Origin: Thermodesulfobacteriota bacterium
Lineage (GTDB): Bacteria; Desulfobacterota; Desulfobacteria; Desulfobacterales; C00003060
Reading direction: 5' to 3'
Assembly (NCBI GenBank): GCA_034189385.1
Contig: JAXHVD010000023.1
Span: forward strand, 1-64,000
DNA: 64,000 nt
Of this stretch, positions 7,319-43,509 are shown in pieces. Position numbers and translations under genes: made by a program. The first letter of the stretch is position 1. Each line of letters opens with the position of its first letter. The notes under the pieces are model-generated. The model was not told where the DNA came from and made no database searches. It saw nothing but the letters and a program-made list of their open reading frames with translations.

Positions 7319-7325
7319 AATGGGC

Positions 7326-11461: not shown

Positions 11462-11580
11462 AGGGAGCGGATTGGGGGTCCTCCTTTGAAACATGGAGGC
11501 CTGTTAGAGCCTTGTTTATCCTGAGAGCGCCCCAATAAAGGTCTCGTCCTGTAAGGCTTAGATAAGAAGAAAGAGGAACG

Positions 11581-12375: not shown

Positions 12376-12494
12376 CAGGATACCTCCTTGGGCCGTGTAC
12401 GGCCCGTGCAGCTCACGCCTTTATCAGTTGAATCGGAGGTGCCGTGGATTTTTCAACGTGACCCGGGCTGACGAGTCTCTCAGAAGGGAGTAAT

Positions 12495-20364: not shown

Positions 20365-20413
20365 GGCGCAAGGCCGGATACCTCAAGTTCTATGCCCTGT
20401 GCCTTGAACTGGA

Positions 20414-22065
<1,652 letters not shown>

Positions 22066-22105
22066 AGCCTATTTGCCCCTCCATGAGGAACATGGAAGAC
22101 CAAAA

Positions 22106-22121
22106 AGCAACACCTGTGCCA
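22106..22121 (-). promoter_or_regulatory. Sigma54 (-24/-12) promoter for amtB-glnK-glnD
   Basis: TGGCAC-AGGTG-TTGCT on the minus strand, matching TGGCAC-N5-TTGCW, about 40 bp before amtB. Confidence 0.85.
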
Positions 22122-22203
22122 AGCCCATGAGCAGGGGAAAAGATGTTGCGAATTCAGAGGCCTATGCATATAACGGCGGACGAATTTCTGGACGACCGCC
22201 AAA

Positions 22204-22244
22204 ACGATAATGTCGTAAACGGGGCAGTTTAATACATAGTTGTA
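22204..22244. promoter_or_regulatory. Candidate upstream activator sites for a sigma54 enhancer-binding protein
   Basis: Two short palindromes ACGA-taatg-TCGT and TACA-tagt-TGTA, about 85-125 bp upstream of the -24 element. Confidence 0.45.
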
Positions 22245-22293
22245 GTTTTAGGCCTTCAGGGTACTCTGGGATTGGCCTGGGCAAGTGTGGGCC

Positions 22294-23583: not shown

Positions 23584-23670
23584 GTCGTTATACCTCTCTC
23601 GATTTAAGGACAGCCTGGGCCATGAGAACAAATATGTAGGTGGCCCTGGCTGGAAACAAGCAGAAGGCCC

Positions 23671-25197: not shown

Positions 25198-25901
25198 GAC
25201 CTCTTTGTCTATTATGCCTCTACAAGGACCGCTTCCGCAAAAAGAGGCTCAACCCCTTTGAAAAACCGAAGAAAGATCACAATGAACGCTCGAAAGAGTG
25301 ATCGAAAGGTCTTCTGGCTTGAGTTATGTGACTGCCATCCGTCAGGCTGGGAGGGCCTCTTTACCGTCTGTCCTCGCCAGACCTGTCAGAGGATACAAGA
25401 CCATGGGTGAATGGGACCCAACTATATGTCAGCCCCTGCTCATTGTCAATGTATGGACAGGCCTACTACAAGCCTTTGCAGTGTTTTTCTATCCCTATCG
25501 CCTCCCCAAAAGGCTCGTTTCTGCCCTGTTTTTTGGCCCTTCAACTCCGGCTGCGGGGGAGTGCATTGGAGACTCACGCTAGTGTGGTGTCTCAGCAATA
25601 CCCTTAAAAAGTAGCGTGTCGCCATCAAGCCACCTTGGAACGAGCACTGGTTCAAATTCTCATTCATTTTTTTGGCGAAACCTCCGATACTTTGTGATAA
25701 AATAATAAAATTTGGGTTGGGCCCGTCCATGGGAGACGGGCTAGAAGGACTTTTTTTGTCTGACGGCTTTTTCTTTTGTCATGTTCCGCGCTATTTCTTC
25801 ATCTTGAGGATTTCCACAGGGTTGATGCTTAAGCTACTGCCTATGGAAAAAGAAGGGGCAATCCTCGTGTACTGTCTGGAGACAAAATGGGAACAGGCGC
25901 C

Positions 25902-27878: not shown

Positions 27879-27881
27879 GAG

Positions 27882-28292
27882 ATGAAGGGCTTTGAACCCA
27901 AGATTGTCGGGTTTCTCTGTAACTGGTGTTCTTACGAGGGCGCCGATGCTGCGGGCAGGGCGCGAAAATCTTATCCGGCAAACCTCCGGGTCGTAAAGGT
28001 GATGTGTAGCGGAAGGACGGATCCCCAATTCATCCTGCAGGCATTTAAGGTTGGCGCCGACGGGGTCCTTATCCTAGGGTGTCACCCTGGGGACTGTCAC
28101 TACAAAGAAGGCAATCTTCAGACACTCAAGAGATACGCGGTGTTGAAGGAGATGCTTCCACAGCTGGGCATAGAATCAGAGAGGTTGAGGCTTGACTGGA
28201 TCTCCGCTAGCGAGGGAGACAAGTTCGCTCAGGTGGTCTCTGACATGGTTGAACAAGTCAGGCAGCTTGGGCCTCTGGTGCGCCCATCATGA
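27882..28292 (+). CDS. mvhD: MvhD / FlxD-like 2Fe-2S subunit
   Basis: FLCNWCSY, VMCSGR, GCHPGDCHY, WISASEG. Confidence 0.93.
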   Translation: MKGFEPKIVGFLCNWCSYEGADAAGRARKSYPANLRVVKVMCSGRTDPQFILQAFKVGADGVLILGCHPGDCHYKEGNLQTLKRYAVLKEMLPQLGIESERLRLDWISASEGDKFAQVVSDMVEQVRQLGPLVRPS

Positions 28293-28350
28293 CGAGGCCT
28301 CTCGTGTCAGGTTCTGTTCTGGAGGTCTTTTTTTTCGGGGTTCGTAACAT

Positions 28351-29322
28351 ATGAGTAAGAAACAAAAAATCGCCTTTTATTGGTGTTCAAGCTGCGGCGG
28401 GTGCGAGGAATCGGTCATCGATTTGGGCCAGGATATCCTAAAGGTGGCTGGGGCTGTAGAAATCGTTTTTTGGCCGGTGGCCATGGATTTCAAATATGCC
28501 GATCTTGCCGCAATTCACGACAACGAGATTGCCGTCACGCTGATCAACGGATCCATCAGGACCGATGAACAGGAGCATATGGCCAAGGTATTGCGAAAGA
28601 AGTCCAAATTGCTCATGGCGCACGGAAGCTGTGCCCATTTGGGTGGCATCGTGGGGTTGGCGAATTTTTTTGAAGCTGCTGAGGTATTGGGCAGGTCCTA
28701 CAAAGAGGTCCCGTCAGTCCATAATCCTCAAGGGGTACTGCCCCAGAAAAAGAAAGTGGAATCGGGAAGGGAGCTCACACTTCCAGGTTTCCATGATACG
28801 GTCAGGACCCTGGACCAGACAGTACCGGTGGATTACTACATCCCTGGTTGTCCTCCAACACCGGAGCTCGTCAAGGATGCGATCATGATGGTGTTAGAGG
28901 ACAGACTTCCCCCCAGGGGAAGCGTGTTGGCTGACAGGAAAGCACTGTGCGAGACATGTCCTCGAAGAGATAGCAGGCCTGACAAGGTGAAGATAAGTGC
29001 CCTGCGGAGGGTCTACGAAATAGAATGGGATCCTCATCGGTGTTTCTTGGACCAGGGTATTATCTGCCTGGGCCCCGCTACAAGGGGGGGCTGCATGGCG
29101 CGGTGCATCCAGGCAAACATGCCCTGTCGGGGTTGCTTTGGACCGACGGACAATGTCCTGGACCAGGGGGCAAAGTGTGTCTCTTTTCTGGCGGCTATCC
29201 TTGATTCAACGGACGAGGAGGAATTGCAGACGATGGCAAAGGCCATTCCTGATCCTGCTGGATTGTTCTACAGATACAGCCTTCCGTCGTCACTTCTCAG
29301 AAGGAAGGTAAGCATTTGGTAA
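28351..29322 (+). CDS. mvhG: F420-non-reducing [NiFe] hydrogenase small subunit
   Basis: CSSCGGCEES, GSCAHLGG, PGCPP, CLGPATRGGC, PCRGCFG. Confidence 0.92.
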   Translation: MSKKQKIAFYWCSSCGGCEESVIDLGQDILKVAGAVEIVFWPVAMDFKYADLAAIHDNEIAVTLINGSIRTDEQEHMAKVLRKKSKLLMAHGSCAHLGGIVGLANFFEAAEVLGRSYKEVPSVHNPQGVLPQKKKVESGRELTLPGFHDTVRTLDQTVPVDYYIPGCPPTPELVKDAIMMVLEDRLPPRGSVLADRKALCETCPRRDSRPDKVKISALRRVYEIEWDPHRCFLDQGIICLGPATRGGCMARCIQANMPCRGCFGPTDNVLDQGAKCVSFLAAILDSTDEEELQTMAKAIPDPAGLFYRYSLPSSLLRRKVSIW

Positions 29323-29520
29323 CGTTCAAAAGTTTAGGCAAAGCGTCTTAGCAGGCAGTTAATAAGGATAGGGAGGATCGCTGAACGTAGGCATACAGCC
29401 ATTTCCATCCACACCAATGGGATGGGCGACTTAAAGGCATTGGATGGCGAAGAGAAGCGAATCGCCCTATCCCGAATGTCTATTCAGAGAAATAGACTGT
29501 CACAACTTCTGAACGTTATG
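29318..29520. mobile_element. MITE family A, copy 2 (203 bp), inserted at the mvhG stop codon
   Basis: Ends GGTAACGTTCAAAAGTT...AACTTCTGAACGTTATG; perfect 8-bp TSD AAGCATTT at 29310-29317 and 29521-29528. Confidence 0.88.
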
Positions 29521-29597
29521 AAGCATTTAGTTGTTCGCAAGACAGAGTTTTTGAAAGTGCTTATAATGTTACAAAGAAAGATAAACGGACGGAGCTT

Positions 29598-31052
29598 ATG
29601 AGTCGACGTATCACCATTGACCCCATAACAAGATTGGAAGGCCACGGCAAGATTGATGTCTTTCTTGACGGCAACGGCGATGTAGAACGTGCCTATTTGC
29701 AGGTGCCGGAATACAGAGGTTTTGAGAAGTTCTGCGAGGGAAGGGCCGCAGAAGAAATGCCCACGCTTACGCAGAAGATTTGCGGGGTCTGCCCCACGGC
29801 CCACCATATTGCCTCTGTTAAGGCATTGGATGATCTTTTTGCGGTGGAGCCGCCTCCTGCTGCCATAAAGATACGGGAGCTCATGCACAATGCATTTGTT
29901 TTTGAGGATCATCTGTTACACTTCTTTTTTCTAGGAGGCCCAGATTTTCTGGTCGGCCCTGAGGCCCCCAGTGCTGAGAGAAACATCCTTGGCGTTATAG
30001 GCAAAGTGGGCCTGGAAATGGGAAAGAAGATCATTGACATACGGGAAAGAGTGCGGGCTGTGAATGGGACCATTAGCGGCGGTGCCCTTTATCCTGTTTG
30101 TGGCCTTCCAGGCGGCGTTTCAAAGCCTCTTACCGAGCAAGAGAAGGCAGAAATAGCGGGGGTGGCAGAAGATGCCGTGGGGTTTGCGATACTTGCATTG
30201 GAGATATTCCGCGACAAGGTCCTCAAGGACAAAAGGTATGCTGAATGGCTAACGGATGACCTCTTCTCCCATAGAACCTATTACATGGGCCTAGTGGATA
30301 GTGACGGGAAGGTAAATTTCTACGATGGGAAGATCAGGGTCGTCGATCCCGACGGAAAGGTGTTTGTAGCCTTTGAGGTAAATGACTATTTGAAGCACCT
30401 GGAGGAACGGGTTGAACCATGGAGCTACATGAAAATGCTCTATTTGAAAGGCATCGGCTGGAAGGGGTTCGTTGATGGGAAAGACAGTGGGGTGTACCGC
30501 GTTGGCCCCCTTGCACGCTTGAATGCCGCTGACGGCATGGCCACGCCTTTGGCTGAGGCCGAATACGAGAAGATGTTTGATCTCTTTTCAGGCAAACCTG
30601 TCCACAACACCTTGGCCTACCATTGGGCCAGGCTTATCGAGGTCTTATATGCAGCGGAAAGGATGGTACAACTCGCCAAGGATGAAGAACTCACCGATGC
30701 CAAGGTGAGAAATCTGCCCAGTCAGACTCCCAAGGAGGGCTTCGGAGTCTGTGAAGCCCCCAGAGGCACTCTTTTTCACCATTACGAAACAGACGACAGG
30801 GCAATCATAGAGAAACTGAACCTATTGGTTGGTACGCAAAACAGCGCCGCAGCCATTTGTATGTCCATCGAAAAGGCCGCCTGTGCCTTGATAAAGGGCG
30901 GCAAGGTCTCGGATAGCACACGAAATATCATAGAGATGGCATACCGAGCTTATGATCCCTGTCTCGCCTGCGCCACCCACTGGATTGAAGGAAAGCGGGC
31001 AGGGATGATTCACATATACAACCATGAACAGGAATTGATACAGGTCCTTTAA
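29598..31052 (+). CDS. mvhA: [NiFe] hydrogenase large subunit, group 3c-like
   Basis: TRLEGH, RGFEKF, L1 QKICGVC, EAPRGTL, L2 YDPCLACATH plus a C-terminal extension. Confidence 0.93.
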   Translation: MSRRITIDPITRLEGHGKIDVFLDGNGDVERAYLQVPEYRGFEKFCEGRAAEEMPTLTQKICGVCPTAHHIASVKALDDLFAVEPPPAAIKIRELMHNAFVFEDHLLHFFFLGGPDFLVGPEAPSAERNILGVIGKVGLEMGKKIIDIRERVRAVNGTISGGALYPVCGLPGGVSKPLTEQEKAEIAGVAEDAVGFAILALEIFRDKVLKDKRYAEWLTDDLFSHRTYYMGLVDSDGKVNFYDGKIRVVDPDGKVFVAFEVNDYLKHLEERVEPWSYMKMLYLKGIGWKGFVDGKDSGVYRVGPLARLNAADGMATPLAEAEYEKMFDLFSGKPVHNTLAYHWARLIEVLYAAERMVQLAKDEELTDAKVRNLPSQTPKEGFGVCEAPRGTLFHHYETDDRAIIEKLNLLVGTQNSAAAICMSIEKAACALIKGGKVSDSTRNIIEMAYRAYDPCLACATHWIEGKRAGMIHIYNHEQELIQVL

Positions 31053-31075
31053 CAAAATACCTAAAGCGAGGAGAG

Positions 31076-31306
31076 ATGATTATGGCGGTAGAAGTCTTGG
31101 ATACTCTTGGTTTGAAATGCCCGCAGCCGGTTCTAAAAATAGCGGTGAAGGCCCCGGACATGAAGCCCGGTGACATTCTGGAAATACTAGGGGACTGCCC
31201 AACCTTTGAGAAGGATGTGCGTACCTGGTGCGAGCGGCTCGGCAAGCTTTTCCTCTCCATTAAGGATGAAGGGGGGGACCAAAAGCGCATCCAGATACAG
31301 TTCTAG
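31076..31306 (+). CDS. TusA/SirA family sulfur carrier
   Basis: LDTLGLKCPQPVL, PGDILEILGD. Confidence 0.9.
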   Translation: MIMAVEVLDTLGLKCPQPVLKIAVKAPDMKPGDILEILGDCPTFEKDVRTWCERLGKLFLSIKDEGGDQKRIQIQF

Positions 31307-31605: not shown

Positions 31606-31958
31606 ATTCCTTCCTGGTCCAGACCGGGTTCTTATAAGGCACCGGTCACTATTTTCCTGTTACGCCAAGGCCGGACGCAATCTCCTTGGCAAGACAGGGT
31701 TTTTGAAAACGCTTGTGTTTGACGAAAAAGCCAACGACAGAACCACGGACGCTCTAAAAACACGAAGCCACGCCTCGTTATAAGGGGCAAGCTGCGAGGC
31801 ACGAAAAGGGGGAAGCCTGGACCAACTGAAAGACCTGGTTGACAGTTACATAAGCCATCCATACAATGGGTTGACAAAGGCTGAAGGTGCTATACGGCAT
31901 CTTCACGGGGGCACTCCATGGGTTATTAAAACACTCTTCGTTACAAGGGCTTTTTCTT

Positions 31959-33257
31959 ATGACGGGAAAAGTGAGGGTCAGTTCTGGAGTCAGCCACCTA
32001 GACCGTCTTCTGGGCGGCCTTTTCATCGGCGATAACGTGGTCTGGCATGATGATGCGGGCTATCTGGCTTCACCTTTCTGCCTGAGTTTTCTCCAAACTT
32101 GCCTAGCTCTACAGAAGCCTGTTATTTACGTTAGCTTTGACCGGTCTCCCAAGAATCTCCTGGACAAATTAGGGGGCCTGGCTGAAAGCCGGGACCTCAC
32201 CATCCTTGACGGCTTCACCTGCGGCAGAGGCCGCGGCAGTTCCATCTTCATGAAGTTCTATGAGGAACCCGACTCTGAACAGCTCTGCCAGATCCAGATG
32301 ATCGATAAGCCTAGAGACGTGGACCATGTGATGGAAAGCATCTACGGGCTCCATGAGACTCTCCATGGCGATGTCCGCCTCATATTCGAAAGCATGACCG
32401 GGATGCAGAAAATGTGGGGAGGCGAGGACGCCATCCTGAAATTCTATTCCCACTCCTGCCCCAGGCTCTATGAGCTGGATACGATTGCTTACTGGATTAT
32501 GGAGACATTGGCTCATACGCAGACACTCAGGGCGCAGATCAATCAGATCGCACAGGTTGCCATTGATCTTTCTATAAAGAGGGGCACGACGATACTCACT
32601 ATTCTCAAGGCTGAGAATCGCGGGATAGAGGGTGCCCGTGAACCACATCGGTACTGGACCAAGGACCTTGCGATCACCTTTGACAAGGAGAAGTATGCCG
32701 GTAATCAATGGAACCTTGGCCTTCGCATCAAAGAACTTCGGGTCAAGCGAGGGTTGTCCCAGGCAGAGCTGGCAAAGCTCGTGGGGGTTACGGCCAGCAC
32801 CATCTCTCAGGTGGAGGCCAACATTATATACCCTTCTCTGCCCGCACTATTGAAAATGGCAGAGGTCCTGGCCGTGGACATCGGCTCCGTCTTCCAACGG
32901 GCTGTGGAAAGGGAAGAAAGGATGATTTTCCCAGCGGCTGAGGCCGTGAGTGTGGGTTTTCCCAACCTGCCTAAGGGGGCACTGGAAGGGAGACTCCTAA
33001 CAGCCCCTGATTTCCACGGAAAGATGGAACCCTATCTCATTGACATCGAGCCTGACCGCGATGTCCCAACCCATTTTTTCTTTCACAAGGGAGAAGAGGT
33101 GGGCTATCTTCTCTCGGGCAGGCTCAGGATGTCTGTGAATAAGGCTGTCTATACCCTTCGGGCAGGCGACGTGGTTTACTTGACTTCAGAGATGCCAAGT
33201 GAGTGGAGAAATCCTGGTCCCAACCTGGCAAGATTACTATGGATTAAATCAAGATAA
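31959..33257 (+). CDS. Transcriptional regulator with a degenerate KaiC/RecA-like N domain, XRE HTH and cupin; start probably ATG 31959
   Basis: VSSGVSHLDRLLGG, YVSFD; LGLRIKELR..SQAELA..STISQVE; HKGEEVGYLLSG. Confidence 0.85.
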   Translation: MTGKVRVSSGVSHLDRLLGGLFIGDNVVWHDDAGYLASPFCLSFLQTCLALQKPVIYVSFDRSPKNLLDKLGGLAESRDLTILDGFTCGRGRGSSIFMKFYEEPDSEQLCQIQMIDKPRDVDHVMESIYGLHETLHGDVRLIFESMTGMQKMWGGEDAILKFYSHSCPRLYELDTIAYWIMETLAHTQTLRAQINQIAQVAIDLSIKRGTTILTILKAENRGIEGAREPHRYWTKDLAITFDKEKYAGNQWNLGLRIKELRVKRGLSQAELAKLVGVTASTISQVEANIIYPSLPALLKMAEVLAVDIGSVFQRAVEREERMIFPAAEAVSVGFPNLPKGALEGRLLTAPDFHGKMEPYLIDIEPDRDVPTHFFFHKGEEVGYLLSGRLRMSVNKAVYTLRAGDVVYLTSEMPSEWRNPGPNLARLLWIKSR

Positions 33258-33403: not shown

Positions 33404-33820
33404 ATGGCACATAAAATATCAAAAAGAATTAGTGTTTTTGAATTTGGATGTGAGGCACCCCTCCGGTTTTTTGAACATTGTACGCAATGCCCTCGCTTTG
33501 GCGATGATTGTCCAGACCTGGCCTTGGGCAAAGAGATCCTTCGTGGGAAGAAGAAGGTGGCCTATGGTGATAACCAAGGAGAAGACACCATTTCCGCTAA
33601 CGCCTTTAATTGCCTGGCCCCACTCTACTACTTTGAGCGTAGCCGAAAAAAATGCGGCCACGCCGGTCGTTGCCGAGAAGAAGGGCTCCTATTAGCACTA
33701 TTGGACGGGAAGAAGACCTTAGACTATTCCCGCAAAGACCCGGCAGAGCTTCCTGTGGTGCGACGACGCAAGAAGGCTAAGGCTGTAATAGCTGAGGCCC
33801 AGGAAGTGGCTGCTTCCTGA
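33404..33820 (+). CDS. Small Cys-rich hypothetical protein with an internal duplication
   Basis: Strong RBS AGGAGG; two FxCxAPLxxFE...C...C halves. Confidence 0.75.
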   Translation: MAHKISKRISVFEFGCEAPLRFFEHCTQCPRFGDDCPDLALGKEILRGKKKVAYGDNQGEDTISANAFNCLAPLYYFERSRKKCGHAGRCREEGLLLALLDGKKTLDYSRKDPAELPVVRRRKKAKAVIAEAQEVAAS

Positions 33821-36800
33821 CAAGTTCCAATGAACCCAAGAAAGCCTTGACTTGGGACGCCAGTTGGCTGTCGGTGAACCCCTTGACGCTGATGGCATGC
33901 CGATAGCAGGTGGCCGCGCATACCCCACACCCTTTGCAGGCCACGTCAACTGGTCGTACCTTCCGTCCATTTGGTGTCTCAACGATCTGTAAGGCCTCAA
34001 AAGGACACAGGGCCACACAGAGACCACACCCTCGACAGGCATCTTCATCCACAGTGGCAATCACACCTTCAGTGACGATGGAGTCCTGTGAGAGCAGGGC
34101 CCCTGCTCGGGCTGCAGCAGCTTGGGCTTGAGCAATGGTCTCCTCAATGGGCTTGGGATAGTGGGAAAGTCCGGCCAGAAAGATTCCGTCCGTGGCCACA
34201 TCCACCGGTCTGAGCTTGACATGGGCCTCCAGAAAGAAACCCTCCTGGTTCATGGAAACCTTATAGAGCCGGGACAGCGTCTCCTGATCCCTACAAGGGA
34301 TGATGGCCGATGCAAGGGTGACGATGTCCGCCTCTATCTCCACATCACACCCAAGGGCTTGATCCTTTAAAGAAACCGTTAACTTCCCGTTGTGACGCTC
34401 AACCGTCGGTTTTTCTGCCAGGTCATAGCGCAGGAACACAATCCCTTTTGACCGGGCTTCTGTATAAATATCTTCCCGGAGCCCGTAGGTGCGGACATCA
34501 CGATAGAGGATGTAGACATCCATATCAGGGTTGCATTCTTTTAGCCTCAAGGCGCTTTCAACGGAATGGGTGCAGCACACCTTGCTACAGTAAGGCCTTG
34601 CCGGTTCTCTTGAGCCCACACACTGGATGAACACTGCGGTCTTAATGTGTCGGAACCTGCTGGAGTCTTTCAACATCTCCCCGTCGAGTTCCAAGGCGAG
34701 ATAGACGTTCGCGTCCTTTTTGTAGAGATATTCCTGCGGCTCATAGGCCTGCCCTCCGCTGGCCAAGATGGCAGCGCCATGGGGTACTTCTGTCTCCTTG
34801 CCTTCACGGTCAACAACAACGGAGGTGAAGTTTCCCACAAACCCGGATGCGGCCTTGACCGTGCTTTGAAGATGAACATGGACTGACGGATGCTCTTCGA
34901 TGGAGCGCACTAGTTTCTCAAGATAAGGCCGGACCTCTTCGCCCTTCCAAGTGCGATAGAGTCTCCTGGCCTGGCCCCCCAAGTGGTCGCTCTGCTCCAC
35001 CAAATGGGCTTCGTAGCCCTGCTCGGCCAGATTCAGCGCACTCGTCATCCCTGCCACACCACCGCCCACGACCAGGCAGGATTTCGTCACTGGCACCCTC
35101 GGTTCAGCTAAGGGGTTGATGAGGCTTGCCCTAGCCGCAGCCATGCGAACGAGGTCTTTTGCCTTCTCCGTGGCCTGTTCCGGATCATGGGCATGAACCC
35201 AGGAACACTGGTCTCGGATGTTGGCCATCTCAAAGAGATACTTATTCAGCCCGGCCTCTCGCAAGGTCTCTCTGAACAGGGGCTCATGGGTCCTGGGAGA
35301 ACAAGAGGCCACCACCACACGATTGAGGCCATGGGTATCGATAGCCCCCTTTATCTTCTCCTGCACATCAGCAGAGCAGGCAAAAAGCTCATCTGAGGTC
35401 CACACCACGTTCGGTAGGGTCTTGGCATATTCAGCCACTTCTGGAACACGGACAACGCCTCCGATGTTGATGCCGCAATGGCATACAAAGACACCAATCC
35501 TGGGCGCCTCGGCTGCCACGTCTCTCTCCTCCGGATAGGATGTCACTTTGGTGAGGCTATGTCGGGCATCAGATAGGGCAGCCGATATGGCACCGGCCGC
35601 AGCGCTTGCCTCCATTACCGATTGGGGGATATCTTTCGGCCCTTGAAAGGCGCCACAGACGTAGACGCCAGGTCTGGCCGTCAAGACAGGAGTGAAGCTC
35701 GTGGTAGCGCCAAAATGGTAATGATCCAATGGGATCCCCAATGTAGCGGTCAGGCCCTGGACGTCACGAGAGGTCCCCAGGCCCACGGAGAGGACCATCA
35801 GGTCAAAGGCCTCTCGCACGCGCTTTGAGGTCTCATCAGTGTATTGGACAAGGAGGTCTTGGGTGTGATCCTCTTGAGTCACTGTATCGATCCTGGACCT
35901 GACGAATCGTATCCCTATCTCCTGTTTGGCCCGATTGTAGAATTTCTCAAAGTCCTTACCGTGGCTCCTCATATCCATATAAAAGATGGCCGTGTCAAGC
36001 TCATAGGGCGCATGCTCTTTTGCCAGCATCGCTTCCTTGATGGCGTACATGCAGCACACCGACGAGCAGTAGCCCCTACCGACAGAAGGATCCCTTGAGC
36101 CGACACACTGGATCCAGCCTATCTTCTTTGGTTCCTTGCCATCAGAAGGCCTCCGGACATGGCCTTGAAAAGGACCGGTGGCTGAAAGGATTCGTTCGAA
36201 TTCCATACTCGTGACCACATTGGGAAACTGGCCGTATCCGTACGTGCCCTTAATGGTTGGATCAAAGGGCTCAAATCCAGTGGCCAGCACTACTGCCCCC
36301 ACCTCCAACTCTAACGACACCTCCTTTTGGTCAAAATCAATGGCCTGGGCCTTACAAACCCTTTCACACTGTTTGCACTCTCGTCTTGTCAAGAAGAGAC
36401 AGGCCGTGGGATCTACATGATAGGCCGCTGGTATGGCTTGCGGATAGTCGATGTGCAAGGCCTTTGTAGTGGAAAGCCCTTCGTTGTAGCCGTCCTCAAT
36501 GACGACGGGGCAGTAGGCCGAACAAGTCCCACAGCACGTACACTGATGAGGATCAACGTAACGTGGCCGCTGCGATACAGTGGCGACAAAGTGTCCAGCT
36601 TCACCTTCCAGGCTCTGGACGCTTGTTGAGGCGAGGATCTGGACGTTGGGGTGACGGTCGCATTCGTTGAGTTTAGGGGCCAGCATACACATGGAACAGT
36701 CATTGGTGGGGAAAGTCTTATCCAGTTGCCCCATCCTTCCGCCAATGGCTGATGCGCTGTCAACGAGGTAGACAGAAAAACCTGAATTGGCCAAGTCCAA

Positions 36801-36878
36801 GGCTGCCTGGATGCCGGCGATGCCTCCGCCGATGACCATCACAGCTCCGATCACCTTGTTGTTATTGGAATCAGTCAT
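33777..36878 (-). CDS. Large double-FAD HdrA-like protein (BamE-like architecture)
   Basis: Two Rossmann motifs (GGGIAG, GGGVAG), DKTFPTNDCSMC, two QCVGSR..YCSxVCC modules, IGVFVCHCG, C-terminal 2x4Fe-4S. Confidence 0.92.
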   Translation of the reverse strand: MTDSNNNKVIGAVMVIGGGIAGIQAALDLANSGFSVYLVDSASAIGGRMGQLDKTFPTNDCSMCMLAPKLNECDRHPNVQILASTSVQSLEGEAGHFVATVSQRPRYVDPHQCTCCGTCSAYCPVVIEDGYNEGLSTTKALHIDYPQAIPAAYHVDPTACLFLTRRECKQCERVCKAQAIDFDQKEVSLELEVGAVVLATGFEPFDPTIKGTYGYGQFPNVVTSMEFERILSATGPFQGHVRRPSDGKEPKKIGWIQCVGSRDPSVGRGYCSSVCCMYAIKEAMLAKEHAPYELDTAIFYMDMRSHGKDFEKFYNRAKQEIGIRFVRSRIDTVTQEDHTQDLLVQYTDETSKRVREAFDLMVLSVGLGTSRDVQGLTATLGIPLDHYHFGATTSFTPVLTARPGVYVCGAFQGPKDIPQSVMEASAAAGAISAALSDARHSLTKVTSYPEERDVAAEAPRIGVFVCHCGINIGGVVRVPEVAEYAKTLPNVVWTSDELFACSADVQEKIKGAIDTHGLNRVVVASCSPRTHEPLFRETLREAGLNKYLFEMANIRDQCSWVHAHDPEQATEKAKDLVRMAAARASLINPLAEPRVPVTKSCLVVGGGVAGMTSALNLAEQGYEAHLVEQSDHLGGQARRLYRTWKGEEVRPYLEKLVRSIEEHPSVHVHLQSTVKAASGFVGNFTSVVVDREGKETEVPHGAAILASGGQAYEPQEYLYKKDANVYLALELDGEMLKDSSRFRHIKTAVFIQCVGSREPARPYCSKVCCTHSVESALRLKECNPDMDVYILYRDVRTYGLREDIYTEARSKGIVFLRYDLAEKPTVERHNGKLTVSLKDQALGCDVEIEADIVTLASAIIPCRDQETLSRLYKVSMNQEGFFLEAHVKLRPVDVATDGIFLAGLSHYPKPIEETIAQAQAAAARAGALLSQDSIVTEGVIATVDEDACRGCGLCVALCPFEALQIVETPNGRKVRPVDVACKGCGVCAATCYRHAISVKGFTDSQLASQVKAFLGSLELVRKQPLPGPQLLQP

Positions 36879-36966
36879 TCAGCGGCACTCTCATTACCCA
36901 GTGCACATGCTTCCGAAAGTTGCATCATGGCTTGTGCGTGTCTGTGGTTCTAGGCACGACCACGCA

Positions 36967-37341
36967 TTAGTCTTCCACCAACTCCAGGGCCCCTGAATTA
37001 CACCACCTGACGCACGAGGGGCTTGGAGGGATGCCACAGAAATCGCACTTGAGGGGAAATCCGGTTTCAGCCTCGATAAAGAAGGGTTTTTCCGGACAGG
37101 AGGCCCTGCAGATGAGGCACATATTGTAGGTTTGGTCGCCGATGACCAGGTCATTCTTAGACGTGCAGGCAGCATCCACAAAGGGACCTGCGATGGTGGG
37201 AAAATAGGTGGAGCCTTCTCGAAATACCCTGATTCTGGCCCTTCTGGGGTTGGCAACACCGGCCACGTGGTTCAGGGAACAGGCGATTTCGCAATGCCTG
37301 CAACCGGTGCATTTGGTATGATCGATCTTTATCCTTGGCAT
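36967..37341 (-). CDS. 4Fe-4S protein, BamC-like
   Basis: CTGCRHCEIAC, NPRRARIRV, AGPF..AAC, CLICRASCP, ETGFPLKCDFC, CVRWC, which I recognise as the BamC pattern. Confidence 0.8.
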   Translation of the reverse strand: MPRIKIDHTKCTGCRHCEIACSLNHVAGVANPRRARIRVFREGSTYFPTIAGPFVDAACTSKNDLVIGDQTYNMCLICRASCPEKPFFIEAETGFPLKCDFCGIPPSPSCVRWCNSGALELVED

Positions 37342-37353
37342 GGTCGTCTTTCT

Positions 37354-39168
37354 TTACAACTCCAAAGCATCCAAGGTCCCCGGAAGGGGGGCACCCCCCT
37401 CGTTCCATCCTCGAAGACGATAATAGACTGGGAGCATCTCCTCCACTTTGCTCGTGTGTCCCTGGGCCGGACCTTCCAACAGCGGCTCTTTTACGAATCT
37501 TTCCGGCAGGACGTCATGGGTGTGGTCAAAGCCAGCCTCCATGTTGAAGCACCGCTCCTGATTCCAGATCCGCTCGCCGATTCTTAGAAGATCTTCTGCC
37601 CGATACTCCGTGCCCAAGCAGCTGTTGATCATGGGGACAAAGTTTTTGAACTTCAGCCCCATGAGGGGCCAGTTGCACAGGCCCAGGGAGTCCATGACCG
37701 CCGTCATGTCCTGGTATTGCTTGACCAGTTCTGGCTTGCCCTCTGTGCTTAGGGGATCCAACTCCTCATGGACGTGGAGGACCTCGTCAATAAAGGTGTA
37801 GGCATAGAGATGCTGGGGGCCATAGTTCGACGTGGCAAAATGGAGCCCCATGCCTTGGATGGCACGGGGGTCAAAAGGGGCCATGGGGATGCCCTTTACG
37901 CCCATGAACCGCTTGGGCTGGCCATATTCGACAGCCAAGGCCTGTCCGCCTTTTCCGATCCGTTTGGCATGCCCCTTTTTTGTGGCCATAAGGGTCAAGG
38001 CTTGCAAAAGATCGTCCCCTTCGCCGAATCTGAATTCAAGTTTCAGGTCCTCCTTTGAGGCATTTCCCTTTTCCACCAGCTCCATGGCCGTGGCCACGGT
38101 GCCCCCTGCTGCCAGGGGATCCAACCCCATTTCCCCGCAAATCACGTTCGCCATGGCAATGGTCGTGAGGTCCCGGATACCGCAGTTAAGGCCAAGGGCG
38201 CCAATGGCCAGAAAGGTGGGTGCCATGCCCTTGCCCTTAAAGAGGGGGCCCATGACATCGGCCTTCTTGATGCAGGCAATGGGACAGGCAAAACAGGCCC
38301 TGCTTCTCAAGGCAAAGAGCCGAGGCAGCGTCTCGGTTTCAATGTGCTTTGATTCCGCCAGTGTGGGGGCCTTGAAGTTTTCAAAGGGCAATATGGCCTT
38401 TTGGTGACAGCGGTCTGCAAAAAAGGCAGAACCCAAAGTGAACATGGACCTTGAGGTGAGCGGCGCGCTGTTCAACTTGTTGATCAGGGTGGTGACGGCC
38501 TGCACAAAACGATCGCCATCAGCCACGGTAAGGGAGTGGCTTCCTCTGACGGCCAGGGCCTTCAGGTTCTTAGATCCCATGACGGCGCCAATTCCGGCTC
38601 CCCCAACAGAGAGAAACCCATCGTTGATGACGTTTGCCAGAGGGATCTCTTTCTCTCCAGCCGGGCCCACAGAGAGAAGATAGGTCTCCCGGCCTGCCCA
38701 TTTGTCCCCCAAACCGGCCTTGAACATCTCTTCTGTCTCAGAGGTGGTTCTGCCCCAGTACTCCAGGGCCGGCTGGATGCTGATCTTGTCCTCCAGAATC
38801 GACAAAATGACCGGCGAATCAGCCTTGCCCTCCATGATAATCATGTCAAATCCGGCAAATTTCAGTTCCGCGCCAAAGTGCCCCCGCAACTTGGCACAGG
38901 CAATGGTTCCGGACAGAGCGCTCTTCGTAACCACATTGCACGATGCGCCCGTCACCGCCCCTGTTCCCGCCAGTGGGCCGGAGACAAAAATAATCTTGTT
39001 CTCGGCAGACAAAGGGTCTACCTGGGGGCTGATCTCTTCAGAAAGAATCTTGACGCCGAGTCCCCGCCCCCCCAGAAACCGCTCCATGAGAGACGGGGAA
39101 ACGTCTTCAATGTGAAAGTCCTTTTTGCTCAGATTGACCCTAAGGCATCGGCCGGTCCAGCCATCCAT
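37354..39168 (-). CDS. Aldehyde:ferredoxin oxidoreductase family protein with degenerate W-pterin and catalytic motifs
   Basis: FLGGRGLG, ELKFAGFD, GAVMGSKNLKA, CFACPIAC, DSLGLC, YYRLRGW; canonical PEYE, RAAGR and DxxGLD are altered. Confidence 0.88.
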   Translation of the reverse strand: MDGWTGRCLRVNLSKKDFHIEDVSPSLMERFLGGRGLGVKILSEEISPQVDPLSAENKIIFVSGPLAGTGAVTGASCNVVTKSALSGTIACAKLRGHFGAELKFAGFDMIIMEGKADSPVILSILEDKISIQPALEYWGRTTSETEEMFKAGLGDKWAGRETYLLSVGPAGEKEIPLANVINDGFLSVGGAGIGAVMGSKNLKALAVRGSHSLTVADGDRFVQAVTTLINKLNSAPLTSRSMFTLGSAFFADRCHQKAILPFENFKAPTLAESKHIETETLPRLFALRSRACFACPIACIKKADVMGPLFKGKGMAPTFLAIGALGLNCGIRDLTTIAMANVICGEMGLDPLAAGGTVATAMELVEKGNASKEDLKLEFRFGEGDDLLQALTLMATKKGHAKRIGKGGQALAVEYGQPKRFMGVKGIPMAPFDPRAIQGMGLHFATSNYGPQHLYAYTFIDEVLHVHEELDPLSTEGKPELVKQYQDMTAVMDSLGLCNWPLMGLKFKNFVPMINSCLGTEYRAEDLLRIGERIWNQERCFNMEAGFDHTHDVLPERFVKEPLLEGPAQGHTSKVEEMLPVYYRLRGWNEGGAPLPGTLDALEL

Positions 39169-39237
39169 GATCTAACACTCCAAAAATAGGTCTTGGATCA
39201 AGCCCTAAAGCACCAGGGCTTGATCCTGTCACCTTCC

Positions 39238-39444
39238 CTAAGCAGCCCCTTTCAACCACTCGGCGGTCTTGTCTTGAAGGGCCTTTTGACCAAAATATAT
39301 ACACGCTGTCTTGCAACAAGTACACCCAATACATTCGTCTGTCTCCACGTAAATGGAACCCTGCTGGTCCTTGATGGCGTGAACAGCACACACCCTCATG
39401 GCATAGCAGTCCTTGCAATTATGCCTGCAGATCACGTTAAGCAT
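39238..39444 (-). CDS. Small ferredoxin-like 4Fe-4S protein
   Basis: CRHNCKDC..VC and CIGCTCCKTAC; RBS AAGGAG. Confidence 0.8.
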   Translation of the reverse strand: MLNVICRHNCKDCYAMRVCAVHAIKDQQGSIYVETDECIGCTCCKTACIYFGQKALQDKTAEWLKGAA

Positions 39445-39468
39445 GGTTTTCTCCTTTCCTCTTGCTGA

Positions 39469-41034
39469 TCATCCTAAGATCTTGTCGATCTCTTCCTTAT
39501 CCGAATCCATCACATAGGGGATACCAGATATCTCCGAAGCTTCTCTTGTGAGAGCGACAAGATCATTTCTTTCAATATACTGAAGGGCGAATTTCCTCTC
39601 CCCTGCCATGAGCTGCTGGAGCCCTTGACGCAGGCGGTCTACATAGGAATAGAGGCCGATGGCACCAGGTGGGAGTTTTCCGAAATCGGTCCCGAAGCGT
39701 TCTTTCAAATGAGCCCCAACGGCAAAGAGCTTCAAATATCCTGTCTCCAGGTCCTCACCCTCCAGGTCCATCTTTTTGGCCATGAGTTTGCCGTGGGTCT
39801 TTCCCACCATGGCTGCCGTCATCATGGCCCGTCCCAGGCAGATGGCCTTCACGTAAGGGGCTCCCAACGCCAAGGCCTTGAAGATGTGATCCTCAAGGGA
39901 AAGCCCACCAGCCATGGCGATAGGTGGAATATAGGCGCCCTTGGCACTGAGACGCTCACAGATCTGGTACATCAGACACTCCAGTTCAACGGTAGGGATG
40001 CCCCATTCGTTCATCATCCGCCAGGGGCTCATACCAGTACCGCCTCCTGCGCCGTCTATGGTCAAGAGATCGATCTTGGCGTCAGAAGAGTACTTGATGG
40101 CCCTGGCAAGGTCTGCGGGGCGATAGGCGCCGGTCTTAAGAGTCACATATTTTGCCCCCGCGCCACGAAGGTGTTCCACAGCGGCAAGGAAGCTCTCTTC
40201 ATCCACCATCCCGAGCCTTGAATGCCTTTCAAATTCTGTGATGCCGCCAGCCTCGAAGGCCTTTTGGGCCGCCGGATTGGTCGGGTCGGGCAAGACGATA
40301 TAGCCGCGTTCCTTGAGCTGCAGGGCCCTTTCCAGGGAGGGCAGTTTCACTTCTCCACCAATGTCCTTGGCCCCCTGGCCCCATTTGAGCTCAAAGATCT
40401 CGATGCCGAGCTTTTCTATGACATACTCCGGAACGCCAAGCTTGGTATCCTCCACATTGGCCTGAACAATGATACCACCCTTTCCATCGTACCATCTCCT
40501 GTAGGCTTCTACCCGGCGTTCCATCTCAGGCGATCTAGCGATCTTGCCGTTGCTGAATTCAGCCTGGGGGTCCATGCCGCAGATGTTTTCGCCGGCAACG
40601 ACGATGATACCAGAGATGGCTGCTCCCACAGCCATGTCTTCCCAGTTGACCCGGGCAATCTCAGTGGACCCTACGGCACCGGTAAAGACGGGGAAATCCA
40701 TCTTGATACTACCATCAGCGCCCACAGCAGTGTTACAGTCTACGGCAGGAAAGGTGGCGACATCGGGGTCGGCCTCAACACCAACGGCCCCCACGCAGGT
40801 CCCCTGGATGTTAAAATGCGAGAAATCTATGGGATAGTCCTTCTCACTGCCTGCGGTAATTTTTCCAAAGGGTTGAGGATAGATAACCTCCCGCCCCTTG
40901 AGGGCGGAACGCCCGATCTCACAGGGACCCTCACAACCATCCAGGCAGGTCACACAAATCCCTGACACAGGGGCTGGGGCGACCCTGGTGTTCGTCACCG
41001 TGGCTGCACTTCGATTCGGTTTGCTAAATGACAT
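39469..41034 (-). CDS. FMN-binding glutamate synthase family protein (stand-alone synthase domain); start ATG 41034
   Basis: CVTCLDGCEGPC, ELKWGQGAKDIGGE, LKTGAY, TIDGAGGGTGMSP, MAGG, KALALGA; no glutamine amidotransferase domain. Confidence 0.9.
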   Translation of the reverse strand: MSFSKPNRSAATVTNTRVAPAPVSGICVTCLDGCEGPCEIGRSALKGREVIYPQPFGKITAGSEKDYPIDFSHFNIQGTCVGAVGVEADPDVATFPAVDCNTAVGADGSIKMDFPVFTGAVGSTEIARVNWEDMAVGAAISGIIVVAGENICGMDPQAEFSNGKIARSPEMERRVEAYRRWYDGKGGIIVQANVEDTKLGVPEYVIEKLGIEIFELKWGQGAKDIGGEVKLPSLERALQLKERGYIVLPDPTNPAAQKAFEAGGITEFERHSRLGMVDEESFLAAVEHLRGAGAKYVTLKTGAYRPADLARAIKYSSDAKIDLLTIDGAGGGTGMSPWRMMNEWGIPTVELECLMYQICERLSAKGAYIPPIAMAGGLSLEDHIFKALALGAPYVKAICLGRAMMTAAMVGKTHGKLMAKKMDLEGEDLETGYLKLFAVGAHLKERFGTDFGKLPPGAIGLYSYVDRLRQGLQQLMAGERKFALQYIERNDLVALTREASEISGIPYVMDSDKEEIDKILG

Positions 41035-41065
41035 AGTCCAATCCTCCTTCACTCAGTTTTCTGAC

Positions 41066-41103
41066 AAAAAAAAAGCCCAACTGTCCTCGTGGGACGGTTG
41101 GAC
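41066..41103 (-). terminator. Intrinsic terminator (attenuator) in the leader of the glutamate-synthase-family operon
   Basis: GTCCAACCGTCC-cacga-GGACAGTTGGGC followed by 9 T. Confidence 0.9.
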
Positions 41104-41140
41104 GTCTCTGTCGTCACTTGAGATGATACCCCATTGTACC
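41101..41140 (-). promoter_or_regulatory. ANTAR-binding dual hexaloop hairpin RNA element
   Basis: P1 GGTAC-AATGGG-GTATC and P2 GAC-AGAGAC-GTC; both loops have A1 and G4; the 3' arm of P2 is the 5' start of the terminator. Confidence 0.88.
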
Positions 41141-41156
41141 TCTCAAGCCGGGCCAA

Positions 41157-41185
41157 CTTCTAACTAAAAAGTCCATCCCTGTCAA
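41157..41185 (-). promoter_or_regulatory. Sigma70 promoter of the ANTAR-controlled operon
   Basis: TTGACA-17 bp-TAGAAG just upstream of P1. Confidence 0.7.
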
Positions 41186-41368
41186 GTCTATTATGGTGCC
41201 GAAGACTGGACAAAGAGAAAACGCCTTGAGCAGGTGCCAATGAGTCCGGCCAAAGGGGGAAGGCCCACGGGGCGCATGGCATCCAGACCGTCCCCCTGAC
41301 AGGGCCTTGACGCCCTCTTCAGATGTGTGTCATCGTCGCCTAGCGGAGACCCATCTGTCCGGGCCTTG

Positions 41369-42064
41369 TCACACTTCCTCAGTTAAAATAATGGCTTCTG
41401 AGACCTCTCTCATGGACTTACGCGTATCCATGCTCCGCCGTTGAATCCACCGATAGGCGTCCGGACCCGACAAACCCCGACGGGTCATCAACAGGTCTTT
41501 AGCCCGCTCGATTAGCTTTCGGGCCTGCAGCTCCTCTTGAATGACCTTGGTCTTGACCATGAGTTCGGTGTTTTCTATGGCTACAGCCGCCTCATTGGCC
41601 ACGGTGGTCAGCACATTCTCCTCGGTCTCTGTAAACTCGTGGGGTGACGACGTATAGCAGTTGATCACGCCGATCACTCTGTCTTTGACCACCATGGGCA
41701 CACTGAGCACAGAGACCAGCCCCTCCTTTTCGGCCAGCTCCTTTTCCTTAAAATCGGGCTCTTCCAGCACGTTCAGACAGGACCTGGGGCGTCTGGTCTG
41801 GGCCACCTGCCCCACAATGCCCTCGCCCATCTTGAGGGACCGCTCCTTTAAGTAGGCCTCGCTAATGCTCTGGGTGGCCCGAAGCTTTAAGACATTGTCG
41901 TTATCATCCAGCAGCCATAGGGAGCATATCGTGGAATGCATGGTCTCGGCCGTGACAGTGACCACAAGGCGCAAGATGTCTTCAATGTACCGATCAGAAG
42001 CAATGGCCTTGCTGATTCTGCTCAGGGCCTCTATGTGCCTTTCAACGGCTTGCTCTTCCCCCAT
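41369..42064 (-). CDS. GAF + ANTAR one-component RNA antiterminator; start probably ATG 42064
   Basis: GAF (GEGIVGQVA, SVPM..VIGVIN); ANTAR RKLIERAKDLLM..AYRWIQRRSMDTRKSMREVSEAI. Confidence 0.93.
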   Translation of the reverse strand: MGEEQAVERHIEALSRISKAIASDRYIEDILRLVVTVTAETMHSTICSLWLLDDNDNVLKLRATQSISEAYLKERSLKMGEGIVGQVAQTRRPRSCLNVLEEPDFKEKELAEKEGLVSVLSVPMVVKDRVIGVINCYTSSPHEFTETEENVLTTVANEAAVAIENTELMVKTKVIQEELQARKLIERAKDLLMTRRGLSGPDAYRWIQRRSMDTRKSMREVSEAIILTEEV

Positions 42065-42071
42065 GATGCAA

Positions 42072-42100
42072 AATATATTGAAACGTAGAAGCCTTGTCAA
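42072..42100 (-). promoter_or_regulatory. Sigma70 promoter for the GAF-ANTAR gene (probably leaderless)
   Basis: TTGACA-17 bp-TATATT ending 7 nt before ATG 42064. Confidence 0.7.
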
Positions 42101-43255: not shown

Positions 43256-43262
43256 GACTGAC

Positions 43263-43440
43263 CAAGAGAGCGCTCCACGATAAGACCGTGACAGTCCCAA
43301 GGATCTTATCCTCAGGCCCAGCCCCCTTTCATGACAGGCCAAAAGCGGACTTCGGCGGTACATCCTTTGAGCGCAAGATCAAATGCCGGGGCCTGTCCCC
43401 CTCTCTAGCGCTTACTCATAAGCACCGCGCCTCAACTCTG
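43263..43440 (-). ncRNA. Lysine riboswitch (L-box)
   Basis: Ordered blocks GAGGCGCG, ATGAGTA, AAAGG, GCCGAAG, CTGGG, ACTGTCA, TGGAGCGCT; upstream of dapA; TTGACA at about 43474-43479. Confidence 0.92.
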
Positions 43441-43509
43441 GTTCAGAATTACCCTAGAAGATGAGATGCCAAGTGTCAAGAAAAAAAGTGGGTTATGCTC
43501 CCGTCATCC

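What the first reader, a model, noticed from the sequence alone, without database searches (positions are those of the whole stretch)
33777..42064. Candidate new system: ANTAR-gated operon joining a stand-alone glutamate-synthase FMN domain to a pseudo-AOR, a BamC-like FeS protein and a double-FAD HdrA
Seen, in minus-strand order: GAF-ANTAR gene, promoter, dual hairpin and terminator, FMN glutamate-synthase-family gene, 68-aa ferredoxin, AOR-like gene, BamC-like gene, 1033-aa HdrA. Gaps between the last five genes are 24, 69, 12 and 88 bp. The synthase lacks an amidotransferase domain, and no GltD or glutaminase gene is in the window. HdrA module 1 keeps the bifurcation-linked Glu and Lys (MEFER, CCMYAIK), while module 2 does not (LELDG, CCTHSVE). 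Known: AOR-family + BamC + HdrA-like subunits form the core of class II benzoyl-CoA reductase, and ANTAR proteins often regulate nitrogen genes. Inference: a BCR-like electron-transfer chassis may serve a glutamine-independent reductive amination (or glutamate oxidation) enzyme, possibly driven by flavin bifurcation and H2 from the converging Mvh-HdrA. I know no description of this combination, but I cannot search.
Basis: partly seen in the sequence, partly recalled or inferred. Interest (0 to 1): 0.85.

Follow-up and report, generated by a model that had tools for sequence, protein, structure and literature searches.

The report
Nitrogen-regulated flavin/pseudo-AOR redox operon
A conserved operon in uncultured anaerobic bacteria joins an untested relative of glutamate synthase's flavin core to a tungsten-enzyme shell that has lost its catalytic residues and to electron-supply parts like those of the aromatic-ring-reducing complex, probably as a way to build glutamate from free ammonia.

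Summary
Observation confirmed: six genes, gaps, ANTAR dual hairpin overlapping a terminator, HdrA motifs. FMN gene + ferredoxin + AOR-like + BamC-like is conserved across Desulfobacterota (FMN+Fd upstream in 26 of 26 loci long enough; BamC-like 31 of 31; HdrA 25 of 29); relatives often add MvhD, HdrC and NuoE/F/G-like or GltD-like genes. The AOR is one clade derived from intact AORs, not BamB: four Arg and Tyr427 are lost in 33 of 33 (kept in 62 of 62 controls), all four cluster Cys kept. The FMN protein keeps glutamate-synthase motifs, lacks the [3Fe-4S] motif, has an N-terminal four-Cys motif, and usually occurs without this chassis. Corrections: the genome has a separate split glutamate-synthase cluster; HdrA asymmetry is the known BamE pattern and is not conserved; the hydrogenase link is not conserved (0 of 36); no BamD. 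GDH-family genes are scarce in operon genomes (8 of 31 versus 89 of 101). Best reading: Fe-S-fed, glutamine-independent glutamate formation (about 0.45); chemistry, complex and bifurcation untested. Ten paper searches found no description. The scan reported this system before on another genome (e1-3572604).

The parts
42072..42100 (-). sigma-70-like promoter of the ANTAR gene (11 of 12 consensus)
41369..42064 (-). GAF-ANTAR antiterminator, 231 aa
   Evidence: Pfam GAF and ANTAR; directly upstream of the operon in 8 of 26 related loci with enough upstream DNA
41157..41185 (-). possible internal promoter: perfect -35, weak -10
   Evidence: read from sequence; not called by the scan
41066..41140 (-). 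ANTAR dual-hexaloop leader (P1 41140-41125, P2 41112-41101) overlapping an intrinsic terminator
   Evidence: same layout before the FMN gene in 12 of 37 related loci; 49 of 49 cells paired in 7 leaders, 2 pairs with two-sided change
39469..41034 (-). stand-alone glutamate-synthase-like FMN barrel, 521 aa, N-terminal C-x2-C-x3-C-x3-C motif, no [3Fe-4S] motif
39238..39444 (-). 68-aa probable 2[4Fe-4S] ferredoxin; travels with the FMN gene, also without the AOR
   Evidence: NCBIfam DmsB-type middle clusters
37354..39168 (-). AOR-family protein with intact [4Fe-4S] ligands but lacking the conserved Arg76/182/186/444, Asn93, Glu313, Tyr427 equivalents (AOR*)
36967..37341 (-). BamC-like three-cluster Fe-S protein, 124 aa
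   Evidence: best solved match BamC 4Z3W_E, 107 bits, next 45 bits
33777..36878 (-). fused double HdrA of BamE type, 1033 aa; Glu228/Lys281 in module 1, Asp732/Glu774 in module 2; Cys where most relatives have TGA (Sec)
   Evidence: BamE layout from bioRxiv 10.64898/2026.04.10.717634
33404..33820 (+). 138-aa Cys-rich ORF converging on the operon (44-bp overlap with hdrA); recurrent neighbour
   Evidence: homologs in 9 other loci; no Pfam or Atlas hit
31887..33257 (+). KaiC/RecA-like + HTH + cupin regulator; recurrent neighbour of the FMN gene family

Best explanation
A nitrogen-regulated operon for a modular redox machine. Catalytic head: the FMN/[4Fe-4S] protein, a widespread stand-alone relative of the glutamate-synthase synthase domain, with its own small ferredoxin; most likely it reduces 2-iminoglutarate formed from 2-oxoglutarate and free ammonia, acting as an Fe-S-fed substitute for assimilatory glutamate dehydrogenase (inferred, untested). 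Adaptor: AOR* plus the BamC-like protein, recruited from an intact AOR-BamC-HdrA-MvhD-HdrC cluster; AOR* most likely lost the tungstopterin and serves as scaffold and Fe-S relay (residue loss shown, cofactor loss inferred). Electron supply: a BamE-type HdrA, in relatives fed by MvhD with NuoE/F/G-like (Bfu) or GltD-like parts; this end is exchangeable and is truncated after hdrA in this genome (shown). Control: the GAF-ANTAR protein lets transcription pass the leader terminator (motif shown, signal unknown). My odds by step: one co-regulated unit 0.9; FMN protein acts on 2-oxoglutarate/glutamate 0.65; without glutamine 0.45; AOR* without pterin 0.65; stable complex with HdrA 0.5; true bifurcation 0.3; H2 from the neighbouring Mvh 0.15.
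For: Synteny: FMN+Fd upstream of AOR* in 26 of 26 loci with at least 2.2 kb upstream (16 of them picked through AOR or BamC, not through Fd), BamC-like 31 of 31, HdrA 25 of 29, MvhD 16 of 23, HdrC 16 of 23, NuoF-like 14 of 23; no FMN gene in the 71 other metagenome AOR loci (many short). AOR*: one clade, SH-aLRT 100, inside the intact AOR+BamC-like group, 99 (quick tree); R76, N93, G95, R182, R186, Y427, R444, C447 kept in 62 of 62 intact AORs and 0 of 33 AOR*, E313 in 4 of 33, four Cys in 33 of 33; 17 of the top 150 representatives keep at most one of four Arg, with differing replacements; its sister L131 is also degenerate and sits on the same chassis beside formate-dehydrogenase genes. FMN protein: E149, Q191, K217, Q220, K223, G226-G227, R243, K300, DGxxGGTG invariant in 96 of 96, aligned to GltB2 and through it to solved GltS; family in 158 of 301 phylum genomes; nitrogen genes near 29 of 44 FMN loci without AOR*; upstream regulators are ANTAR, NifA-like or NrpR; direct FMN-NuoE-NuoF-NuoG-FMN cluster in L247. 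GDH family in 8 of 31 operon genomes against 89 of 101 in an order-wide sample.
Against: No activity, expression or binding is shown. The FMN protein is distant from GltS: no sequence hit in PDB, hhalign probability to GltB2 only 10%, nearest folds are 2-hydroxy-acid oxidases with GltS at rank 23. A second GltB2-type gene is present in 32 of 36 genomes tested, and this genome also has a GDH-family gene. FMN homologs without AOR* often lie beside gdhA (12 of 44), so the family is not simply a GDH substitute; the GDH contrast is confounded by kinship and smaller genomes. In the main subclade the replacement residues of AOR* are themselves invariant (120 of 120 at S76, C77, K93, R95, H97), and single Arg losses are common in the family, so a remodelled pterin site is not excluded. 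Glutamate formation does not need very low potential (GltS FMN about -240 mV, PMC8097209), yet in BCRII the BamC branch is the low-potential one. No BamD/HdrB partner in the operon except one locus (L207). G189, G350 and G379 have the four core genes without hdrA.
Confidence: 0.45

Rival explanations
1. AOR* still binds a W/Mo-bis-pterin in a remodelled pocket and is a second catalytic subunit with new chemistry (for instance releasing ammonia from, or reducing, a nitrogen-pathway substrate) on the low-potential branch.
For: Replacement residues invariant in 120 of 120 close relatives, with new basic side chains K93 and R95; D343, D489, R430, K82 and H448 equivalents kept; BamB lacks second-shell residues yet binds W, and WOR5 replaces one conserved Arg (PMC12096430); MoaC in 27 of 31 operon genomes.
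Against: Four Arg lost together and bulky residues at G95 and S94 in 33 of 33; BamB keeps the R76 and R186 equivalents; replacements differ between AOR* subclades and one member lacks His448; no Cys322-type ligand; the FMN family mostly works without AOR*.
Confidence: 0.25
2. The FMN protein is an alternative synthase subunit that borrows the amidotransferase (GltB1) and GXGXG parts of the split glutamate synthase encoded elsewhere; the operon only supplies a different electron input.
For: Split cluster on C9; a GltB1 homolog found in 22 of 36 genomes with this query; glnA often nearby.
Against: Those clusters carry their own GltB2; the FMN protein lacks the SPPxH loop region and the C-terminal cluster motif of GltB2; GltB1 not found with this query in 14 of 36 genomes.
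Confidence: 0.15
3. The system runs oxidatively: glutamate (or another amino or 2-hydroxy acid) is oxidised at the FMN and the electrons are lifted to NAD(P)+ by confurcation with reduced ferredoxin at HdrA.
For: Nearest folds are lactate/glycolate oxidases; a high-potential substrate would explain the need for an HdrA module; family members lie beside gdhA.
Against: Regulators and neighbours (ANTAR, NrpR, amtB, PII, glnA) point to assimilation under nitrogen shortage (PMC3369931); sequence motifs are those of GltS.
Confidence: 0.12
4. The genes share regulation only: the FMN-ferredoxin pair and the AOR*-BamC-HdrA block are separate units in one nitrogen island.
For: FMN+Fd occur without AOR* (6 loci); the HdrA slot is filled by different paralogs.
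Against: Order and strand fixed in all informative loci across several families, gaps of 12 to 88 bp; no AOR* locus with enough upstream DNA lacks the FMN gene.
Confidence: 0.1

Closest known systems
Class II benzoyl-CoA reductase Bam[(BC)2DEFGHI]2 (Geobacter metallireducens; bioRxiv 10.64898/2026.04.10.717634; PDB 4Z3W for BamBC)
   Same: AOR-family subunit + three-cluster BamC + fused double HdrA with Lys at the first FAD only and a Cys pair near it; in relatives MvhD and NuoE/F/G-like genes as BamF/G/H/I.
   Different: AOR subunit comes from the true-AOR clade, lacks BamB's Cys ligand and the pterin-pocket Arg; no BamD; an FMN enzyme and a ferredoxin are added; nitrogen control; no aromatic context; tail is variable.
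Glutamate synthase synthase domain (Synechocystis Fd-GltS 1OFD, Azospirillum alpha-GltS 1EA0) and split GltB2
   Same: FMN barrel; E-x-K-x-x-Q-G-A-K, following GG, Arg, Lys and DG-x-x-GGTG motifs.
   Different: Stand-alone, very distant; no amidotransferase, central or GXGXG domain; no [3Fe-4S] motif; new N-terminal four-Cys motif and an invariant RHSR motif.
Aldehyde:ferredoxin oxidoreductases (P. furiosus AOR 1AOR; class IV WOR 9MQX)
   Same: Same fold (TM 0.94), about 41% identity, all four cluster ligands, His448.
   Different: Glu313, Tyr427 and four Arg lost. PMC12096430 states that all known members carry W/Mo-bis-pterin; the passages read there and in PMC13328260 mention no such clade.
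ANTAR antitermination (EutV type; PMC3369931)
   Same: Dual hexaloop with A1/G4, second hairpin overlapping a terminator; ANTAR targets before glutamate synthase genes were already predicted there.
   Different: GAF input domain with unknown ligand; only part of the operon copies use ANTAR (others NifA-like or NrpR).

Membership tests
Class II benzoyl-CoA reductase | BamB-type catalytic subunit with Cys322 tungsten ligand | tested here: not met
   143 bits to BamB vs 497 to AOR; F319-L320 at the aligned place; clade apart from BamB-like rows
Class II benzoyl-CoA reductase | BamC three-cluster subunit | tested here: met
Class II benzoyl-CoA reductase | BamE: fused HdrA dimer, Lys at first FAD, none at second | tested here: met
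   not conserved in most relatives
Class II benzoyl-CoA reductase | BamD (HdrBC/HdrD-like high-potential outlet) in the cluster | tested here: not met
   none in the window operon; relatives have HdrC alone or HdrC-GltD, one has HdrB; CCG proteins lie on other contigs
Class II benzoyl-CoA reductase | BamF/G/H/I homologs in the cluster | tested here: inconclusive
   absent from the window operon; MvhD 16 of 23 and NuoF-like 14 of 23 in relatives
Class II benzoyl-CoA reductase | benzoyl-CoA reduction | not testable with these tools
   needs assay
AOR sensu stricto | second-shell Thr243, Glu313, Tyr427, His448 | tested here: not met
   S247, L320, F432, H453 in the window protein (residue set from PMC13328260, PMC12096430)
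AOR sensu stricto | four [4Fe-4S] Cys ligands | tested here: met
   33 of 33
AOR sensu stricto | bound W/Mo-bis-pterin | not testable with these tools
   sequence argues against; metal analysis needed
Glutamate synthase | FMN (beta/alpha)8 synthase domain with GltS motifs | tested here: met
   Pfam 50 bits over cut-off; which residues bind 2-oxoglutarate is recalled, not found in a paper
Glutamate synthase | [3Fe-4S] motif after the barrel | tested here: not met
   0 of 96 homologs; present in the genome's GltB2
Glutamate synthase | amidotransferase and GXGXG domains in the gene or operon | tested here: not met
   such genes lie on C9
Glutamate synthase | glutamate formation from 2-oxoglutarate | not testable with these tools
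   needs assay
ANTAR target RNA | two hexaloop hairpins with A1 and G4, second overlapping a terminator | tested here: met
   definition from PMC3369931
HdrA-type electron bifurcation | Glu356/Lys409 at the FAD plus high- and low-potential outlets | tested here: inconclusive
   residues met in module 1; no high-potential outlet in this operon; activity untested

The most novel reading that the evidence does not exclude
A BCRII-type HdrA/Bfu chassis in which the tungsten enzyme has become a cofactor-free Fe-S scaffold couples ATP-free ammonia assimilation to electron bifurcation: glutamate formation at a new FMN/[4Fe-4S] enzyme is either the high-potential sink that lets NAD(P)H reduce ferredoxin, or is pulled by low-potential electrons at very low ammonia.
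Probability: 0.2. Interest if true: 0.9.

Novelty: new variant of a known kind. Interest (0 to 1): 0.68.

Why it matters
It would add a third entry route for ammonia beside GS/GOGAT and GDH in energy-starved sediment anaerobes, give a function to a flavoprotein family found in about half of the Desulfobacterota genomes sampled, and provide a first case of an AOR-family pseudoenzyme. It also shows the BCRII electron-supply chassis used with a head unrelated to aromatic reduction, which matters for annotation: aor, bamC and hdrA hits of this kind are no markers of aldehyde or aromatic metabolism. The stand-alone FMN protein and the four-gene form make the central claims cheap to test.

Tried and rejected
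Complex prediction of the FMN protein (residues 20-415) with AOR* (1-600): no verdict. RNA runs: none listed. H2 link to the neighbouring Mvh-HdrA: MvhA/G in 0 of 36 related loci, within the stretches fetched. HdrA asymmetry as a system feature: rejected. Descent of AOR* from BamB: rejected. A decaying pseudogene: rejected, open frames and 73-98% identity in the 120 best hits. Strict NrpR-operator and sigma-54 patterns (recalled): 0 of 37 leaders, so those two regulators rest on gene adjacency only. MoaC co-occurrence does not discriminate (27 of 31). PDB sequence search of the FMN family: nothing real. Pfam GATase_2 found nothing in the genome, and the C9 gltB1 is named from its position and N-terminal Met-Cys only. 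The careful tree did not finish; the quick tree is quoted. Paper searches: (swamped by an unrelated word); none listed a description of the operon, of AOR* or of this FMN family. The largest supplementary table of PMC13328260 could not be read and might list AOR* sequences; bioRxiv supplements were not seen.


Full report
1. Observation. All six genes, their order, strand and gaps are as described. Families: GAF+ANTAR, Glu_synthase (50 bits, partial), AFOR_N+AFOR_C, Fe-S, HdrA. The leader holds two hairpins with A1/G4 hexaloops, the second sharing its 3' arm with a terminator; this is the motif defined in PMC3369931 (passages read), which also predicted ANTAR targets before glutamate synthase genes. 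A genome-wide pattern scan gave 9 hits against 3, 0, 1 in shuffles, this one with the strongest terminator. The same layout precedes the FMN gene in 12 of 37 related loci, but in only 2 of the 13 among them that carry the AOR gene; seven leaders chosen for the motif pair in 49 of 49 cells with two two-sided changes, 26 of 500 shuffles reaching that. The internal promoter is weak.

2. Conservation. I gathered 36 other loci with this AOR type, through the AOR, the FMN gene (13), the ferredoxin (22) and the BamC-like gene (64). FMN gene and ferredoxin lie upstream in 26 of 26 with at least 2.2 kb upstream (10 were picked through the ferredoxin, 16 were not); BamC-like follows in 31 of 31, HdrA in 25 of 29, MvhD and HdrC in 16 of 23 each, NuoF-like in 14 of 23; MvhA/MvhG in 0 of 36. 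Two loci end about 310 bp upstream and are uninformative. The tail varies: NuoE/F/G-like genes, an HdrC-GltD fusion, or a membrane Fe-S protein with HdrB; G189, G350 and G379 stop after the BamC-like gene. Upstream regulators are ANTAR (8 of 26), a NifA-like activator or NrpR, and glnA, PII, amtB or glnD are often close. None of 71 other metagenome AOR loci has the FMN gene. The BamC-like query matched 33 of 401 genomes of the class, close copies being concentrated in two families; named hits are Desulfobacterales and Deltaproteobacteria MAGs. Kin are not independent.

3. The AOR-like protein. It is closest to P. furiosus AOR (497 bits) and far from BamB (143 bits), with the AOR fold (TM 0.94). 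By P. furiosus numbering R76, N93, G95, R182, R186, Y427, R444 and C447 are kept in 62 of 62 intact AORs and in 0 of 33 operon proteins; E313 in 4 of 33; the four cluster Cys, D343, R430 and D489 in 33 of 33; H448 in 32 of 33. T243/E313/Y427/H448 and the Mg ligands N93/A183 are from PMC13328260 and PMC12096430 (passages and one section each read); the role of the Arg in pterin binding is recalled. BamB keeps the R76 and R186 equivalents. The operon proteins form one clade (SH-aLRT 100), sister to L131, inside a group of intact AORs that are followed by BamC-like genes, several also by HdrA, MvhD and HdrC (quick tree, 47 rows). So the chassis is older than the loss. L131 is degenerate in another way and lies beside formate-dehydrogenase and FrhB-like genes, without the FMN gene. 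Among the best 150 representatives at 50% identity, 17 keep at most one of the four Arg (one is a fragment), with differing replacements, while 18 keep two and 52 three (fast alignment). Against a plain scaffold: in the 120 closest relatives the replacements are invariant.

4. The FMN protein. The family is in 105 of 151 genomes of the order and 158 of 301 of the phylum, mostly without AOR*. Of 44 such loci, 29 have ANTAR, gdhA, glnA, PII or amtB nearby, 12 gdhA; L247 wires it directly to NuoE/F/G-like genes, as earlier scan notes said. The model is an FMN barrel (pLDDT 76) nearest to 2-hydroxy-acid oxidases (Z about 23), GltS 1OFD at Foldseek rank 23. Motifs that align with GltB2 and solved GltS are invariant in 96 of 96; the N-terminal four Cys are in all that reach them; the [3Fe-4S] motif is in 0 of 96. 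That these motifs bind 2-oxoglutarate is recalled; my search for the residue numbers found no paper. GltS architecture and FMN potential are from PMC8097209 (passages). This genome has a separate split glutamate-synthase cluster on C9, and 32 of 36 tested genomes have another GltB2-type gene. GDH-family genes are in 8 of 31 operon genomes against 89 of 101 in an order-wide sample; this genome has them.

5. HdrA. Module 1 keeps the Glu356/Lys409 equivalents, module 2 does not. This is the BamE pattern of the 2026 BCRII structure (bioRxiv 10.64898/2026.04.10.717634, parts 1-3 of 8 and passages read), where BamC-BamB is the low-potential branch and BamD the high one. Such fused HdrAs have four more long paralogs in this genome. 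The window's copy is 67% identical to one on C23 and 47-59% to operon HdrAs elsewhere, 10 of 12 of which keep Lys in both modules; most have an in-frame TGA at the second Cys. The HdrA slot is thus exchangeable, and the asymmetry is no mark of the system.

6. Mechanism. Most likely: under nitrogen shortage the ANTAR protein opens the operon; electrons from NAD(P)H or ferredoxin enter through HdrA and its partners, pass BamC-like, AOR* and the small ferredoxin to the N-terminal cluster and FMN, which reduces 2-iminoglutarate made from free ammonia. Shown: anatomy, conservation, residue loss, regulatory motif. Inferred: substrate, direction, assembly, bifurcation. One tension is open: glutamate formation needs no very low potential, so it would fit better as the high-potential sink, like the heterodisulfide at -140 mV (PMC9304861, passages), while the BCRII wiring puts BamC on the low branch.

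7. Known systems and novelty. It works like a BCRII or class IV WOR modular assembly but is no member: BamB and BamD tests fail. It is no AOR by second-shell residues and no canonical GltS by cluster motif and domains. The ten paper searches listed no description; 'glutamate' does not occur in the main text of the WOR classification, the Bfu survey or the BCRII preprint. The library lacks most subscription journals. The scan noted the same system on another genome (e1-3572604), read there as an altered tungsten enzyme, which I keep as first rival.

8. Verdict. Real, conserved and, as far as I could search, undescribed; a new variant of modular HdrA/Bfu assemblies with two parts of interest in their own right, a probable AOR pseudoenzyme and an uncharacterised glutamate-synthase-like family. 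Interest 0.68.

Noticed in passing
window 43261-43443 (-): Lysine riboswitch ahead of a dihydrodipicolinate synthase gene; ordinary.
   Followed up: yes
window 33404-33820 (+): 138-aa Cys-rich ORF with an internal repeat, found with the KaiC-like/HTH/cupin gene beside the operon in 9 other loci; no Pfam or Atlas match.
   Followed up: partly
window 31887-33257 (+): KaiC/RecA-like + HTH_3 + cupin protein that accompanies the FMN gene family in 19 of 44 loci without AOR*; a candidate nitrogen regulator.
   Followed up: partly
L131 4513-14207: A second degenerate AOR with BamC-like, HdrA, MvhD, FrhB-like, formate-dehydrogenase and HdrC genes and no FMN gene; sister of the AOR* clade.
   Followed up: partly
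L217-L220 (G797, G576, G090, G763): Intact AOR + BamC-like + very long HdrA (up to about 1500 aa) + MvhD + Fe-S protein + HdrC + second HdrA: an uncharacterised candidate bifurcating AOR complex.
   Followed up: partly
L247 (G241) 7171-13955: Two FMN-family genes flanking NuoE/NuoF/NuoG-like genes on one strand.
   Followed up: no
P0123-P0125, P0128-P0132, P0135, P0161: Further AOR-family representatives that keep four Cys but have lost most pocket residues; contexts unknown.
   Followed up: no
window 17716-25197 (-) and 25887-31306 (+): glnD, PII, amtB, citrate synthase and a NifA-like activator form a nitrogen island with the operon; an HdrA-MvhD-MvhG-MvhA-TusA block lies inside it in this genome only among the loci seen.
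   Followed up: partly
G000 C9 1225-10279: Split glutamate-synthase cluster whose probable GltB1 escapes Pfam GATase models.
   Followed up: partly
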